Position numbers and translations under genes: made by a program. Shown in pieces: positions 4,627 to 63,794 of a stretch of DNA of 64,000 nt. The DNA comes from Acidobacteriota bacterium. GTDB taxonomy: Bacteria; Acidobacteriota; Terriglobia; Acidiferrales; UBA7541. The notes under the pieces are model-generated. The model saw nothing but the letters and a program-made list of their open reading frames with translations. It was not told the origin of the DNA and searched no databases. Position 1 is the first letter of the stretch, and each line of letters opens with the position of its first letter. The stretch spans positions 1,619 to 65,618 of the forward strand of contig PMUS01000096.1 of the NCBI GenBank assembly GCA_003166795.1, read 5' to 3'.

Positions 4627-4981
4627 GTTGAAAAATCGCGGCGCTTCCGTACGCCGGCGAAGTCGTGTCCAATGACAAGTTTTTTCACAGACTGTACCCC
4701 GAAGCTCAGAAGACGGGACGCGTGAAGGCTAAACTGTTGAGTAACGGCGATTTCCTCAAACGATTCTAGGGTCGTTCGTGCGTTCGTTACTTTGGCGAAC
4801 GCGAAGCAAGCAAATCGATCACCTGTACTGTTTCTGTTCGTTGTCCCAGCTTTCCCCCGCGACAAATCCTGCCAGAGTGAGTCGGGGCAGTTTTCGGGCC
4901 CGCTTTCAGACGCGCACGCGTCTCGGCCCTCCTGGCGAGGGCTGGCTGCTCTTTGAAAACGGACGATGCGATCAGCATAGG

Positions 4982-5022
4982 CATCCCGAGCGAGCCCCGA
5001 ATAATTCGGGGCGAGACGAAGG
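4982..5022. repeat. CCGAGCG...GAAGG element carrying a hairpin insert (copy A)
   Basis: The sequence is catcccgagcgaGCCCCGaataattCGGGGCgagacgaagg. Related copies lie at 30426-30454 and 63588-63634. Confidence 0.6.
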
Positions 5023-5050
5023 CACTCCATTTCCTCGGTCGCGGCCCAAT

Positions 5051-5254
5051 TTCTAATCGACACACGGGCGATTGGAGACAGCTGAAACTGTCCGAAATTA
5101 CACGATGGGGACCACTTCTAATCGACACCAAACCGGCGCTTGGCGCGCGTTCTTTTCGCGGATAGCAGCCCGAACTAAGTGACACACCATGCTAAGTAAA
5201 TTCCGGCGTAACCTATTGAAAACAAAGAAAAGCGACACCCACAAAGTGACACAC
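5051..5254 (+). repeat. array of paired GACAC-anchor repeat units (two units)
   Basis: TTCTAATCGACAC occurs at 5051 and 5116 (65 nt apart). AAGTGACACAC occurs at 5177 and 5244 (67 nt apart). The interior TTGAAAACAAAG block is shared with the copies at 28618 and 63449. Confidence 0.8.
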
Positions 5255-5381
5255 TTTTCGAGGGCTCGCGACGCACGAGCGACAGCTAGCGCCAGCACCT
5301 TGCTGGCGGTTTTGATTTACATCATGCCCGAAATTCGCCACCAGGATGGTGGCGCTGCGTGATTCAGGAAAGCCGCGCACT

Positions 5382-24200: not shown

Positions 24201-24266
24201 CTGTCACGATTCTCGTGTCCCAACCTATCGTGTCGCGCACGCGGCTTTTCACATTCGTGTCGCGCA
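24201..24266 (-). repeat. GACAC-anchor repeats in reverse orientation
   Basis: TCGTGTCGCGCA occurs at 24228 and 24255 (reverse complement TGCGCGACACGA). Further GTGTC/GTCAC motifs lie at 24215 and 24201. The spacing is shorter (27 nt) than at the other loci. Confidence 0.5.
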
Positions 24267-24281
24267 GGTGAGCGCTTTACG

Positions 24282-24316
24282 GTGAAAGCGTGGGGCTTCA
24301 GCCCCACGAAAAGCAC
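24282..24316. repeat. GTGAAAG-hairpin element (single copy)
   Basis: gtgaaagcGTGGGGCttcaGCCCCACgaaaagcac closely resembles the core of the tandem units at 63278-63414. Confidence 0.65.
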
Positions 24317-24372
24317 GCCAAAATTTCTCGGGCTTTAGCGCTGGCGGCTTTTTACCCGGCGCGAGAACCTCA

Positions 24373-28539: not shown

Positions 28540-30402
28540 GTGATGAGAAAACCTGGATTCGGCGGGCGGTTCACCGGCCCCGCAGCGCGGAGCGGCCGCG
28601 GTAGTTCACTGCCCCACTTACTCGACACTCGCTGCCGAGTAGATTTCGAGCTAAGTTGTTCAAAACAAAGGACGGCGGACACAGTTACTCGACACAGAAA
28701 ACGAGCTAGCGTACTGCAAACTTCTGCCGTCTTTTTTCTACTTTCCGCCTTCGTCGCCACAGCCGCTTTTTCGCAATCGTCCCAGAAGCTCGTCGTCGCG
28801 CCCGATATTGCGGCAACGTTCGCGAAATTCAAGCCCGTCAAGATGCCCTTCGATTCGAGCCACCTGAGTGATCGCGAAAAGCAGATGGTCGCGAAACTTG
28901 TGGACGCCGCCGGCCTGCTCGATTGCATCTATTGGCGGCAAAGCGATCCTGAAGGACTGAAGCTTTTTGTCTCGCTCGCGAATAGCAACGACTCGCGGGA
29001 CCAGATGCTGCGCGAACTATTGAAAATAAACGGCGGACGCTATAACCAGATCAACAATGGTAAGCCTTTCGTCGGGACCGAGCCTGCACCACCCGGCCGC
29101 GGCCTCTTCCTTCCTCAAGAGACGCAAGAGCACCTGGATCAACTGATCAAGGATAAGAAGCTCGAAAAATCCGCCGTCTACTCGCCATATACGATCGAGC
29201 AGATTTGTCCGGGCGGCAAGGCAAGCGGTGCCTCCGTCCCCTGCTTCGTGCCCTACCATGTCAAATTCCAGGAATTCGTAGTGCCGATGGCGAAGGACCT
29301 CTACGATGCAGCCGATCTGAGCGACGATCCGGCATTTGCAAAGTTTCTGCGCCTTCGCGCCGGCGCGCTGCTTTCCGACGATTACTATCCAAGCGATCTC
29401 GCCTGGATGGATCTTGAGAACCCGAAATTCGACGTCGTCTTCGCGCCCTACGAGGTCTATCTCGACGGGCTGCTCGGCGTGAAGACTTCGTACGGCGCGG
29501 CCATCATGATTCGCAACGACGCGGAAAGCCAAAAGCTCGCCCTATTTCAGAAGTTCGTTCCGGAGCTGCAGGAATCTCTCCCGCTCGCGGCCGAGGATCT
29601 GCCTTCCGAGCGCGGAAAACACCAGCCGATGGAAGTGGTGGATGCAATCTACCGCGCGGGCGACCTGCTGCACGGCTATCAGCCCGTCGCCGACAATCTA
29701 CCGAACGATCCGCGCGTCCATCAGGAGAAAGGCTCCAAGAAAATCTTCTGGAAGAATTTCATGGATGCGCGCGTCAACTTCATCATTCTGCCGCTGGCCG
29801 GGCGCCTGATGCCGGCGGATCAAGCAAAAATGGTCACCGGCGAAGGCACGCTCGACTTCATAATCCTGCACGAAATTTCCCACGGCCTCGGCCCCACCTA
29901 CGTTCATGGATCGAACGGCAAAATGGGAATCGGCGAGGCCATCGGCCCGCGGTATTCCGCGCTGGAGGAATCGAAGGCCGACATCACGGGCATGACGTGC
30001 GTGAAATGGCTGGTGGATCACGGCGCGATCCCGAAGGAAAGACTGGACGGGATTTACGCATCATTCCTCGGCGAGACGTTCCGCACCATTCGCTTCGGGA
30101 TAGCCGAATCGCACGGCGCCGGCGCGATGATGGAGATCAGCTACCTCACGGAACAAGGCGCCATCCATCGCGATCCATCCACCGGACTCTACGCCGTGGA
30201 TTTTCAGAAAATGCCGGTGGGGATAGCTTCTCTCGCGAAAGAATTGCTCGAACAGGAAGCAACCGGCGACCGCGCGCGCACCGAGAATTGGTTCAAGAAA
30301 TACGCCGTGATGCCGCCGGAGCTCGCCGCGGCCCTCGCGAAGGGTTCCGACATCCCCGTGGACGTGGACCCAGAGTTCGACTTCCATCCGCCGGTTCGCT
30401 AG
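28540..30402 (+). CDS. M49-like zinc peptidase with HExxH variant motif
   Basis: ILHEISHGLGP and EESKADITGM are present. A hydrophobic signal/anchor VLQTSAVFFLLSAFVATAAFSQ appears only after about 57 residues. The 5' end is uncertain (see findings). Confidence 0.75.
   Translation: MMRKPGFGGRFTGPAARSGRGSSLPHLLDTRCRVDFELSCSKQRTADTVTRHRKRASVLQTSAVFFLLSAFVATAAFSQSSQKLVVAPDIAATFAKFKPVKMPFDSSHLSDREKQMVAKLVDAAGLLDCIYWRQSDPEGLKLFVSLANSNDSRDQMLRELLKINGGRYNQINNGKPFVGTEPAPPGRGLFLPQETQEHLDQLIKDKKLEKSAVYSPYTIEQICPGGKASGASVPCFVPYHVKFQEFVVPMAKDLYDAADLSDDPAFAKFLRLRAGALLSDDYYPSDLAWMDLENPKFDVVFAPYEVYLDGLLGVKTSYGAAIMIRNDAESQKLALFQKFVPELQESLPLAAEDLPSERGKHQPMEVVDAIYRAGDLLHGYQPVADNLPNDPRVHQEKGSKKIFWKNFMDARVNFIILPLAGRLMPADQAKMVTGEGTLDFIILHEISHGLGPTYVHGSNGKMGIGEAIGPRYSALEESKADITGMTCVKWLVDHGAIPKERLDGIYASFLGETFRTIRFGIAESHGAGAMMEISYLTEQGAIHRDPSTGLYAVDFQKMPVGIASLAKELLEQEATGDRARTENWFKKYAVMPPELAAALAKGSDIPVDVDPEFDFHPPVR
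28618..28695 (+). repeat. paired GACAC-anchor repeat unit (inside the annotated 5' end of the CDS)
   Basis: TTACTCGACAC occurs at 28618 and 28685 (67 nt apart). The interior tagatttc...ttcaaaacaaagga is homologous to the units at 5177 and 63449. Confidence 0.75.
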
Positions 30403-63277: not shown

Positions 63278-63414
63278 ATCAGGTGGAAGTGGGCCCTAAG
63301 GCTCACGAAACGCACCCCGGTAATCATGGTTTCGGCCAGGGGATATCAGGTGAAAGGGTGGGCCTTAAGGCCCACGAAACACACTCCCGGTAATTATGGT
63401 TTCAGCCATGGGAT
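63278..63414 (+). repeat. two tandem 67-bp units, each with a GTGGGCC-TTAA-GGCCCAC type hairpin
   Basis: Unit 1 starts at atcaggtggaagtgggccctaaggctcacgaaacgcac.... Unit 2 starts at 63345 with atcaggtgaaagggtgggccttaaggcccacgaaacacac.... The period is 67 nt. Confidence 0.85.
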
Positions 63415-63448
63415 ATTGCGTGCCGCCACTGCTCGCAGATCACCAACA

Positions 63449-63535
63449 AAGTGACACACCATGCAAAGTAATTTCTCGCGTAACGTCTTGAAAACAAAGG
63501 AAAGCAGCACCCGCAAAGTGACACACTTTCGACGA
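63449..63535 (+). repeat. paired GACAC-anchor repeat unit (AAAGTGACACAC type)
   Basis: AAAGTGACACAC occurs at 63449 and 63516 (67 nt apart). By eye the interior is about 80% identical to 5188-5242. Confidence 0.8.
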
Positions 63536-63634: not shown

Positions 63635-63643
63635 GGAACTCAT

Positions 63644-63721
63644 TTCTAATCGCCACTGTGGCGATTAGAAACGCCCCCAAACCGCTGCAAACACAGAACG
63701 GCGGCCCTCTCTAATCGACAC
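63644..63721 (+). repeat. paired anchor unit (TCTAATCGNCAC type) whose first anchor forms a perfect 13-bp palindrome
   Basis: TTCTAATCGCCAC-t-GTGGCGATTAGAA spans 63644-63670, and CTCTAATCGACAC lies at 63709 (65 nt apart). Confidence 0.75.
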
Positions 63722-63794
63722 TCATCGGCCCCTCTCGAGAGTGCGGAAAAGTCGTCTAACAACGGAGGGGGAACCAGATCTTTGGGAGAGACGC

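What the first reader, a model, noticed from the sequence alone, without database searches (positions are those of the whole stretch)
5051..5254. Dispersed repeat family built from paired GACAC anchors 65-67 nt apart that co-vary within each pair
At four intergenic loci an 11-13-nt motif ending in GACAC recurs after a fixed 65-67 nt. The pairs are TTCTAATCGACAC at 5051/5116, AAGTGACACAC at 5177/5244, TTACTCGACAC at 28618/28685, AAAGTGACACAC at 63449/63516, and TTCTAATCGCCAC/CTCTAATCGACAC at 63644/63709. A reverse-oriented short variant, TCGTGTCGCGCA, occurs twice at 24228/24255. The two anchors of a pair match each other, while pairs differ from one another. Interiors are homologous between loci: TAARTTYC ... 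TTGAAAACAAAGRAAAGC in one subfamily, GGCGATTRGARAC ... AAAC in the other. In the GTGACAC subfamily a third short repeat (CTAAGT or CAAAGT) also co-varies with the anchors. In the TCTAATCG subfamily the anchor pairs with an inverted copy just downstream; that palindrome is a perfect 13 bp at 63644-63670. Within-pair co-variation of direct repeats at fixed spacing is not what simple REP hairpins or tandem duplication produce. It could reflect target-site duplication by a tiny non-autonomous element, concerted conversion, or a phased protein-binding array (66 nt is about six helical turns).
Basis: seen in the sequence. Interest (0 to 1): 0.62.

Follow-up and report, generated by a model that had tools for sequence, protein, structure and literature searches.

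The report
Twin-anchor dispersed repeat of soil Acidobacteria
The paired GACAC motifs belong to a real, apparently undescribed non-coding repeat of about 100 bases, present in 3 to about 100 copies in one genus-level group of uncultured soil Acidobacteria; its repeated arms change together over evolution, most likely because one protein must recognise all of them.

Summary
All five units sit at the stated coordinates. A profile search finds 71 units in this 3.9-Mb genome, all outside the long ORFs I called as genes.

Each unit has this layout: anchor DR1 (TA-N3-G-N-CAC), 3-4 nt, an inverted copy (IR), an almost invariant core TAA-N4-TTGAAAACAAA, then anchor DR2 65-67 nt after DR1, then a G-rich tail.

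Within-unit anchor identity is 0.77, against 0.61 between units (z=10). It is not absolute: only 24 of 71 units have identical 11-nt cores, and hybrid units exist.

Co-variation also appears at 15 orthologous loci in a sister species. Both anchors changed at the same position 25 times (9.7 expected), 17 of them in a fully coordinated way.

The family was found in all 24 same-genus genomes searched (3-98 copies) and in none of 16 genomes from other families of the order. One species has about 80 copies dominated by one near-identical variant. Orthologous sites are either filled or empty.

Target-site duplication, a known RNA family, a CRISPR-like array and a REP cognate to the local RAYT-like genes were each tested and not supported.

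Best reading: a REP/BIME-like non-autonomous element with two hairpin modules in direct orientation around an IHF-like A-tract.

The parts
5045..5139 (+). Unit 1 (TAATCG type). DR1 5051-5063, imperfect inverted copy about 5070-5079, degenerate core, DR2 5116-5128.
   Evidence: Sequence; nhmmer hit C78:6663-6757, E=2.3e-13; alignment.
5170..5266 (+). Unit 2 (AAGTG type). DR1 5177-5187, inner GCTAAGTAAATT, core TTGAAAACAAAG 5216-5227, DR2 5244-5254, tail TTTTCGAGGG.
   Evidence: nhmmer hit C78:6788-6884, E=1.1e-21; CM hit, 84 bits.
28613..28705 (+). Unit 3 (ACTCG type). DR1 28618-28628, IR GCCGAGTAG, core variant TTCAAAACAAAG 28659-28670, DR2 28685-28695. It lies inside the open 5' extension of the M49 peptidase ORF.
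   Evidence: nhmmer hit C78:30231-30323; orthologous unit in G003 locus L089; the frame is open in both species.
63442..63532 (+). Unit 4 (AAGTG type). DR1 63449-63460, core 63488-63499, DR2 63516-63527. A near-identical twin lies at C55:5541.
   Evidence: nhmmer hit C78:65060-65150; comparison with the C55 copy.
63640..63728 (+). Unit 5 (TAATCG type). DR1 63644-63656 forms a perfect 13-bp palindrome with IR 63658-63670; core is degenerate (CTGCAAACACAG); DR2 63709-63721.
   Evidence: nhmmer hit C78:65258-65346.
63283..63400 (+). NOT part of the unit. Two tandem copies of a different hairpin repeat ('module A': GTGGGCCTTMAGGCCCAC ... CATGGYTTCRGCCATGGGA) directly upstream of unit 4. The same module flanks the RAYT-like genes of this genome.
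24228..24266 (+). NOT a family member. The 12-mer TCGTGTCGCGCA occurs twice, 27 nt apart, next to a module-A copy at about 24282-24345.
   Evidence: no profile hit.

Best explanation
The anchors are the arms of a genus-restricted, non-coding dispersed repeat of about 95-105 nt. It is found in Ca. Acidiferrales-type Terriglobia and behaves like a REP/BIME-type non-autonomous element.

Anatomy (shown). A 13-16-nt motif built on TA-N3-G-N-CAC occurs three to four times. DR1 and an adjacent inverted copy (IR) form a palindrome or hairpin with 9-13-bp arms. DR2 lies 65-67 nt after DR1. In young copies DR2 is followed by a second, degenerate inverted copy. The unit is therefore two hairpin modules in direct orientation. 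Between them lies an almost invariant A-tract core, TAA-N4-TTGAAAACAAA. On the other strand this reads TTTGTTTTCAA-N4-TTA, the core of the IHF consensus TCAANNNNTTR preceded by a T-rich tract.

Dynamics (shown). Copy number ranges from 3 to 98 among congeners. One species has about 80 copies dominated by one near-identical variant. Orthologous sites are filled in some species and empty in others. Species have their own dominant anchor variants.

Mechanism (inferred). One sequence-specific protein, a recombinase/transposase or a nucleoid protein, must recognise every arm. An IHF-like bend at the core would bring the DR1/IR palindrome and DR2 together. Only copies whose arms all fit that protein are propagated or retained. 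Template switching within the quasi-palindrome and between the two direct copies could also homogenise the arms in place. Either process makes DR1, IR and DR2 change together while the interior drifts.

The core is about six times more conserved than the rest of the unit at orthologous loci. It is therefore constrained in place, either because the host uses it (for example for DNA bending) or because it is continually converted.
For: Census and anatomy: 71 units, all outside the long ORFs I called as genes, with one shared alignment.

DR1-IR pairing: 78.8% of cells are paired. Two-sided changes are seen at 8 of 10 pairs, for example AU 27 / UA 17 and CG 28 / UA 14. 0 of 500 shuffles reach the observed score.

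Anchor co-variation within genomes: 0.765 against 0.611, z=10.2. The direction is the same in 8 further genomes.

Across species, the 3' half of the anchor is the same in both DRs of a unit: GATAC/GATAC in 18 units and GATCC/GATCC in 6, with 0 discordant, in G016; GCAAA, GCAA and GACAA variants in other genomes.

At 15 loci orthologous between G000 and G003, both DRs changed at the same position 25 times in 238 positions (9.7 expected), and 17 of these were fully coordinated. Divergence is 0.04 in the core against 0.18-0.26 elsewhere in the unit.

Distribution: 24 of 24 same-genus genomes have the family (3-98 copies); 0 of 16 genomes from other families of the order do.

Filled and empty sites: the sufB-sufC spacer carries a unit in 7 genomes plus a partial one, and is empty (32-50 nt) in 5. 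Whole islands are present or absent between G003 and G000.

Second hairpin module: visible in G016.

IHF-like core: 29 of 71 units match TCAANNNNTTR at a fixed position, against 0.006 expected per unit length. BIME-1 linkers of E. coli frequently carry an IHF site (PMC3333891).
Against: No protein partner was identified.

No autonomous element with these ends exists in this genome. The 5' and 3' halves occur apart only in three 5'-half-plus-other-module cases and a few low-scoring or gap-truncated hits.

The Y1/RAYT-like genes examined are flanked by other repeats.

No clean single-unit insertion with an exactly defined empty site was seen. Between sister species whole islands of 500-650 nt differ, and strain-level contigs were identical.

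The AAGTG subfamily, about a third of copies, keeps only about 5 bp of DR1-IR pairing yet persists.

The IHF match is to a proteobacterial consensus and misses one consensus position. The A-run is conserved far more strictly than IHF sites usually are.

In the lineage control the excess is modest (0.765 against 0.688). Several coordinated changes at orthologous loci could come from replacement of a unit by another copy; the L077/C105 pair is only 58% identical.
Confidence: 0.55

Rival explanations
1. A structured cis-regulatory or small RNA. The inverted copy would pair alternately with DR1 or DR2, a switch-like leader or 3'-UTR element, which would explain three-way co-variation through base pairing.
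For: DR1-IR is 78.8% paired and IR-DR2 is 66.9% paired, both with two-sided changes. Units lie in the same orientation as co-directional flanking genes 28 times against 13. Many sit 1-130 nt upstream of a start codon, for example in the sufB-sufC spacer. In unit 2 the first terminator-like hairpin on the + strand lies after the unit, so the unit could be co-transcribed.
Against: There is no Rfam match at gathering or E<=1 level. RNAalifold finds no consensus fold on either strand. G-T wobble shows no strand asymmetry, 68 against 81. The most conserved positions (G-N-CAC, TGAAAACAAA) are unpaired. The 3' half of the anchor co-varies between DR1 and DR2 without a partner in the IR (G016). 30 of 68 units abut the 3' end of an opposite-strand gene. 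The AAGTG subfamily has lost most of the pairing.
Confidence: 0.12
2. A miniature derivative of an IS200/IS605-type element (a PATE) or another single-strand-DNA element. The two direct hairpin modules would be the left and right subterminal hairpins recognised by a Y1 (HUH) transposase supplied in trans.
For: The unit has two hairpin modules in direct orientation and no target duplication. Y1_Tnp genes are present in 21 of 24 same-genus genomes. Several Y1 genes lie within about 2 kb of a unit in G003, G012 and G016 (coordinates).
Against: The Y1/RAYT-like genes examined are flanked by different hairpins: GCGCCTACGGCGC-type REPs in G016 and G000 C37, and module A in G000 C61 and C32. That explains their proximity to units, because units share islands with those repeats. 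Three genomes with 6-13 units have no Y1 match, and Y1 genes are equally common in families of the order that lack the unit. No tnpA-bearing element with unit ends exists in G000. Orientation in the one-contig genome G016 shows only a weak split: 15+/26- in the first half against 22+/17- in the second (my count, origin position assumed, no statistical test run).
Confidence: 0.1
3. A tiny element that makes a 13-nt target-site duplication on insertion, or a copy-from-one-template element (a greater-than-unit-length copy of a 66-nt circle, LTR-like) that regenerates both anchors at each copying event.
For: The direct repeats lie exactly at the borders of the most conserved segment: the twin units C78:65060 and C55:5541 are about 96% identical from DR1 to DR2 and diverge just outside. 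Six or more anchor variants are each shared by both DRs. The unit is about 1.4 periods long.
Against: The anchors are not random targets. They are a few related motifs, and the internal IR matches them. Five empty sufB-sufC spacers hold nothing anchor-like. No permuted units and no 2.4-mer or 3.4-mer arrays were seen. 47 of 71 units have unequal anchors, and orthologous units change anchors in place.
Confidence: 0.07

Closest known systems
REP/BIME elements of Enterobacteria and Pseudomonas, especially BIME-1 (the 'RIP/RIB' class, named from my own knowledge) with an IHF site in the linker (PMC3333891, PMC2817692, PMC3733652)
   Same: Short intergenic palindromic repeats at high copy. They are assembled into mosaic islands with other repeat modules. 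A conserved linker carries an IHF-type site between two copies of the palindrome motif. Consensus sequences are species-specific. Copy number varies among relatives.
   Different: The two hairpin modules are direct, not inverted as in BIMEs and REPINs. No invariant GTAG or CGTC tag is present; only TA is invariant, and GTAG sits inside the 3' arm in about half the copies. The local RAYT-like genes are flanked by other repeats, not by this one. The central A-run is far more strictly conserved than a BIME linker.
IS200/IS605 ends and their miniature derivatives (PATEs); Y1 HUH transposition through single-stranded DNA (PMC6006769, PMC3333891)
   Same: Subterminal hairpins of like sequence at both ends in the same orientation. 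No terminal inverted repeats and no target duplication. The two ends must co-vary because one protein reads both.
   Different: No cognate tnpA element with these hairpins was found. The second hairpin is degenerate in most copies of this genome. No conserved flanking tetranucleotide or clear replication-strand bias was shown.
Correia/NEMIS elements of Neisseria and other MITEs with a central IHF site (from my own knowledge)
   Same: An intergenic element of about 100-150 nt, with repeated ends around a central IHF-type site, often next to or inside transcription units.
   Different: Correia elements have 26-bp terminal inverted repeats and a TA duplication. Here the ends are direct and there is no duplication.
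Quasi-palindrome and direct-repeat template-switch mutagenesis (from my own knowledge; Ripley-type templated mutation)
   Same: It offers a purely mutational route by which an inverted copy and two direct copies are corrected against each other, giving several coordinated base changes at once.
   Different: It is a general process, not an element family. By itself it does not explain why many loci in one species move toward the same variant (AATTACTCGACACAC in G003).

Membership tests
REP/BIME (RAYT-associated) | 20-40-nt imperfect palindrome, intergenic, many copies | tested here: met
   The DR1+IR palindrome spans 27-33 nt. There are 71 copies, all outside the long ORFs I called as genes.
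REP/BIME (RAYT-associated) | Conserved GTAG or CGTC tag at one end of the palindrome | tested here: not met
   Only T28/A29 are near-invariant. GTAG occurs inside the 3' arm of the ACTCG and ACCCG types; the other types have TTAG or GTAA there.
REP/BIME (RAYT-associated) | A RAYT gene flanked by the same repeat | tested here: not met
   Of the four Y1 genes of G000, C37 is flanked by a CGCACCTACGG-type repeat and C61 and C32 by module-A hairpins. The flanks of the fourth (C19) were not read; its nearest unit is about 4.6 kb away. A G016 Y1 gene is flanked by GCGCCTACGGCGC repeats.
REP/BIME (RAYT-associated) | Palindromes paired in alternating (inverted) orientation | tested here: not met
   The two hairpin modules of a unit are direct.
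BIME-1 / IHF-binding class | An IHF binding site in the conserved linker | tested here: inconclusive
   A sequence match to TCAANNNNTTR at a fixed position is found in 29 of 71 units, and the full 13-mer consensus in none. Binding is not testable with these tools.
MITE | Terminal inverted repeats plus a target-site duplication | tested here: not met
   The ends are direct repeats that belong to the consensus. Empty sites lack them.
MITE | A related autonomous IS with the same ends | tested here: not met
   Half-profiles find no separated 5' and 3' ends in G000. Other genomes were not searched exhaustively.
IS200/IS605-derived PATE | Like hairpins at both ends on one strand, with no target duplication | tested here: inconclusive
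   The first hairpin is strong. The second is clear only in G016 and is reduced to CGAGGGG in G000.
IS200/IS605-derived PATE | Orientation bias relative to replication | tested here: inconclusive
   In G016 the strand counts are 15+/26- in the first half and 22+/17- in the second (my count from the coordinates). The origin position is assumed, not mapped, and no statistical test was run.
Known RNA families (Rfam 15) | Covariance-model match | tested here: not met
   There are 0 hits at gathering score in the whole window. The only hit at E<=1 is E=0.6, outside the units.
CRISPR-like mini-array | Repeats flanking variable spacers, related to a CRISPR array or cas locus | tested here: not met
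   The 'spacer' is the most conserved part of the unit. My k-mer scan found no CRISPR-like array in G000.

The most novel reading that the evidence does not exclude
The unit could be the integrated, greater-than-unit-length (about 1.4-mer) copy of a 66-nt replicating or excising circle, or more generally an element that rebuilds both terminal anchors from a single template each time it is copied, as LTR elements do. That would be a new, very small class of bacterial mobile DNA. It would explain directly why at least six different anchor variants are each shared by both ends, and why the anchors mark exactly the borders of the best-conserved segment.
Probability: 0.06. Interest if true: 0.85.

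Novelty: new variant of a known kind. Interest (0 to 1): 0.45.

Why it matters
Dispersed palindromic repeats are best understood in Proteobacteria. This family comes from an uncultured, abundant soil and peat lineage of Acidobacteriota and has a distinct design: two direct hairpin modules around a nearly invariant A-tract.

It also gives unusually clear evidence that the arms of one element evolve in concert, even at orthologous loci between sister species, while the interior drifts. That makes it a tractable case for an old question about REP-like repeats: are species-specific consensus sequences kept by a co-evolving binding protein, by templated conversion, or by turnover?

In practice, the units and the islands they sit in break MAG assemblies. 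They also mark rearrangement breakpoints: at sufB-sufC, G003 differs from G000 with the breakpoint inside the unit. They can sit inside operons and even inside an open reading frame. Annotators of these genomes should know about them.

Tried and rejected
1. Target-site duplication: rejected.
2. Known RNA family, promoter or terminator: nothing found inside the units. RNAalifold on all 71 units, both strands, gave no consensus structure.
3. Strand-specific RNA pairing inferred from wobble pairs: no asymmetry.
4. CRISPR-like mini-array, prompted by the 65-67-nt period and the ATTGAAA-like core: no arrays found, and the 'spacer' is conserved.
5. REP cognate to a RAYT: the RAYT-like genes are bracketed by other hairpin repeats.
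6. Autonomous parent element: half-profile searches found none in G000.
7. Synteny downstream of the permease in G041: not conserved, so uninformative.
8. Strain-level empty site: four metagenome contigs carrying the DUF3309 gene had an island identical to the window.
9. Clean single-unit gain or loss between G000 and G003: only whole islands differ.
11. A literature search for an Acidobacteria repeat of this kind found nothing relevant. Earlier scan notes hold no look-alike sequence.
12. One script mis-sliced two units at contig ends. Only its per-unit counts and spacings are used, not its means.

Full report
OBSERVATION
The window is C78:1619-65618 of a 3.92-Mb, 115-contig, 60% GC assembly. 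Across the genome, exact 10-mer direct repeats are in excess at non-multiple-of-3 distances. There are 34 at 65 nt, 95 at 67 nt and 69 at 68 nt, against roughly 3-17 at most other such distances. Part of the 68-nt count comes from an unrelated 68-nt tandem array. Listing these repeats shows one recurring element. A profile built from 42 exact-pair units recovers 71 units at E<1e-5, all outside the long ORFs I called as genes.

ANATOMY
Aligned units read, 5' to 3', as follows:
- a variable lead-in; in about 15% of units this is an array of heptamer words (TCACGAR)n with spacings of 7, 14 and 21 nt;
- DR1, 13-16 nt, built on TA-N3-G-N-CAC;
- 3-4 nt;
- an inverted copy (IR, for example GTGCCGAGTAG);
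- about 10 variable nt;
- the core TAA-N4-TTGAAAACAAA, with columns 90-100% conserved over 168 units from 12 genomes;
- about 15 variable nt;
- DR2;
- four A/T bases, then CGAGGGGG.

Only G12, C14, A15, C16, A41, A52, G79, C81, A82 and C83 are invariant in G000. The anchor types (ACTCG, ACCCG, AATCG, AAGTG) share that frame.

DR1 and IR are 78.8% paired over 10 positions. Two-sided changes occur at 8 of these, for example AU 27 / UA 17, UA 24 / AU 18 and CG 28 / UA 14. None of 500 shuffles reaches the observed score, and slid controls give 29-54% pairing. IR can also pair with DR2, at 66.9%. The AAGTG type keeps only the AATTA/TAATT part of the stem.

In the young copies of genome G016, DR2 is followed by GTGGCGAT(ATT)TAGA. 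This is a degenerate copy of the IR GTGACGATTAGAA. The unit is therefore about 1.4 copies of a 66-nt period, that is, two hairpin modules in direct orientation. In G000 the second inverted copy has decayed to CGAGGGG.

IS THE WITHIN-PAIR CO-VARIATION REAL?
It is real, but statistical rather than absolute.
- In the unbiased set of 71, DR1/DR2 identity over 16 nt is 0.765 within units and 0.611 between units (permutation z=10.2).
- 24 of 71 units have identical 11-nt cores, against 7% for random pairs.
- 47 units differ in the core, and hybrids such as ACTCG...AAGTG are common.
- As a lineage control I compared each DR1 with the DR2 of the unit whose interior is most similar. This gives 0.688, still below 0.765 (p=3e-4).
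- The excess is in the same direction in 8 further genomes.

Across species, the 3' half of the anchor does not pair with the IR yet is the same at both ends of a unit. G016 has GATAC/GATAC in 18 units and GATCC/GATCC in 6, with none discordant. GCAAA, GCAA and GACAA variants occur elsewhere.

The strongest test is free of family structure. G003 is a sister species: SufC is 99% identical and genes are about 85-90% identical at the nucleotide level. At 15 loci orthologous between G000 and G003, both anchors differ between the species at the same position 25 times in 238 positions, against 9.7 expected under independence. In 17 of these cases DR1 equals DR2 in each species. Some of this could come from replacement of a unit by another copy; the L077/C105 pair is only 58% identical.

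At the same loci, divergence is 0.18-0.26 in the anchors, IR, interior and tail, but 0.04 in TGAAAACAAA. The core is therefore constrained in place.

The 24228/24255 pair is not a member of the family.

DISTRIBUTION AND DYNAMICS
A covariance model finds the family in all 24 same-genus genomes searched, with 3-98 copies. It finds none in 16 genomes from other families of the order.

G016 has about 80 copies dominated by one near-identical variant, which looks like a recent burst. G003 is dominated by AATTACTCGACACAC, even at loci where the G000 orthologue differs.

The sufB-sufC spacer holds a unit in G000, G003, G011, G013, G041, G001 and G049, and a partial unit in G017. In G021, G054, G052, G047 and G010 the spacer is 32-50 nt with nothing anchor-like. 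In G003 the 5' half of that unit and everything upstream differ from G000, which points to a rearrangement with its breakpoint inside the unit. Between G003 and G000, whole islands of 500-650 nt are present or absent, for example L076 against a 96-nt gap and L092 against a 38-nt gap.

GENE CONTEXT
- Flanking-gene orientation (5' side, 3' side, relative to the unit): same/same 28, same/opposite 17, opposite/opposite 13, opposite/same 10.
- By my count from the table, the unit's 3' end lies within about 130 nt of a gene boundary in 42 of 70 cases. That boundary may be a start or a stop codon. The 5' side is that close in only 2 of 69 cases.
- The 5' side is usually occupied by other repeat modules.

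WHAT IT IS NOT
- Not a target-site duplication.
- No Rfam family, sigma-70-like promoter or intrinsic terminator lies in the units.
- RNAalifold finds no consensus fold, and wobble pairs show no strand asymmetry (68 against 81).
- My k-mer scan found no CRISPR-like array in the genome.
- Y1/RAYT-like genes are common throughout the order, including in genomes without units, and are absent from three genomes that have 6-13 units. Those I examined are bracketed by other hairpins. G000 C37 and a G016 gene are flanked by CCTACGG-type REPs. G000 C61 and C32 are bracketed by 'module A' (GTGGGCCTTCAGGCCCAC ... CATGGCTTCAGCCATG), whose last hairpin even encodes the protein's C-terminus.
- Module A often sits just upstream of AAGTG-type units, as at window 63283-63400. 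This explains why Y1 genes tend to lie near units.
- Half-profile searches find no separated ends in G000, so there is no autonomous parent there.

HOW IT MOST LIKELY WORKS
Shown: three to four copies of one motif in a fixed geometry around an invariant A-tract; concerted change of those copies; bursts and patchy occupancy.

Inferred: one sequence-specific protein reads all the arms. The core reads TTTGTTTTCAA-N4-TTA on the other strand and matches the IHF core consensus in 29 of 71 units, against 0.006 expected per unit length. It would be a bend site that brings the DR1/IR palindrome and DR2 together, as in intasome- or transpososome-like complexes. E. coli BIME-1, whose linker carries an IHF site, is a comparable case (PMC3333891, read). 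Copies whose arms all fit the protein are the ones propagated or kept. Template switching in the quasi-palindrome and between the direct copies may correct the arms in place.

I put 0.55 on this REP/BIME-like, protein-read, non-autonomous element. The rivals are a structured RNA (0.12), an IS200/IS605-type miniature (0.10), and duplication or copy-from-one-template models (0.07).

COMPARISON AND NOVELTY
The family works like REP/BIME elements but fails several membership features: no invariant GTAG/CGTC tag, direct rather than inverted pairing, and no cognate RAYT. It shares the like-oriented hairpin ends of IS200/IS605 miniatures but lacks a parent element. It is not a MITE. I rate it a new variant of a known kind.

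LIMITS
Gene calls are my own rough ORF picks.

Noticed in passing
window 63283-63400 and 24282-24345; G000 C61:1800-2340 and C32:300-900: A second repeat family, 'module A' (GTGGGCCTTMAGGCCCAC-GAAAC...CATGGCTTCAGCCATGGGA), brackets the RAYT-like (weak PF01797) genes of this genome. The gene's last codons (PWLKP*) are the second hairpin. This looks like the true REP/RAYT pair of this organism. At the orthologous site in G003 the gene is absent, and an island containing a GACAC unit sits in its place.
   Followed up: partly
window 28540-28720 (unit 3) and G003 locus L089:1400-1668 (- strand): The M49 peptidase ORF stays open through the whole unit, in the same frame, in both sister species. G003 has an in-frame ATG inside the unit (AGG ATG GCG) just before the signal peptide, where G000 has ACG. 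DR2 encodes the positively charged stretch (TRHRKR / TRHTK) ahead of the hydrophobic core.
   Followed up: partly
upstream of about 11 of 71 units, e.g. G000 C46:2620-2695, C105:5600-5640, C68:99790-99850; G016 loci L013, L024, L035: Arrays of heptamer words lie directly 5' of units: (TCACGAR)n in G000, with spacings of 7, 14 and 21 nt. G016 has different words (CCACTAR / CACTCGC). The words share the (A/G)TCAC ending with the anchors.
   Followed up: partly
G000 C85:32480-32600, C39:26310-26420, C58:17750-17920: Three loci have a unit's 5' half (DR1+IR), then another repeat module (...GTCCCGAGTCCGCCACGGCGGAGG.GCCGAGGGATCTCTC...), then a complete unit. The DR1-IR part is thus present twice around the inserted module.
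   Followed up: no
G000 C113:115155-115330 and C80:1330-1450: Tandem arrays with periods of 68 and 70 nt are built from the 'GAAGGATCTCTC / ATCGTCATCCTGAACC' module. It is unrelated to the GACAC unit but contributes to the 68-nt peak in the repeat-distance histogram.
   Followed up: no
G000 C69:10562-10697 versus G003 locus L046: In G003 sufB is no longer upstream of sufC. The sequence switches from orthologous to unrelated inside the unit, between the IR and the core. The repeats therefore seem to serve as recombination breakpoints. Likewise, the orthologue of the window's AAA-ATPase gene in G003 is joined to the unit that is orthologous to G000 C55:49500 (L073).
   Followed up: partly
window 4923-5020 and G000 C71 upstream of 7592, C32:1850-1900: Another shared island module (CCTCCTGGCGAGGGC..GCTCTTTGAAAA...GCATCCCGAGCGAG) begins with a terminator-like hairpin at 4923-4945. 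It has a weak sub-threshold Rfam match to Pseudomon-Rho (E=0.6).
   Followed up: no
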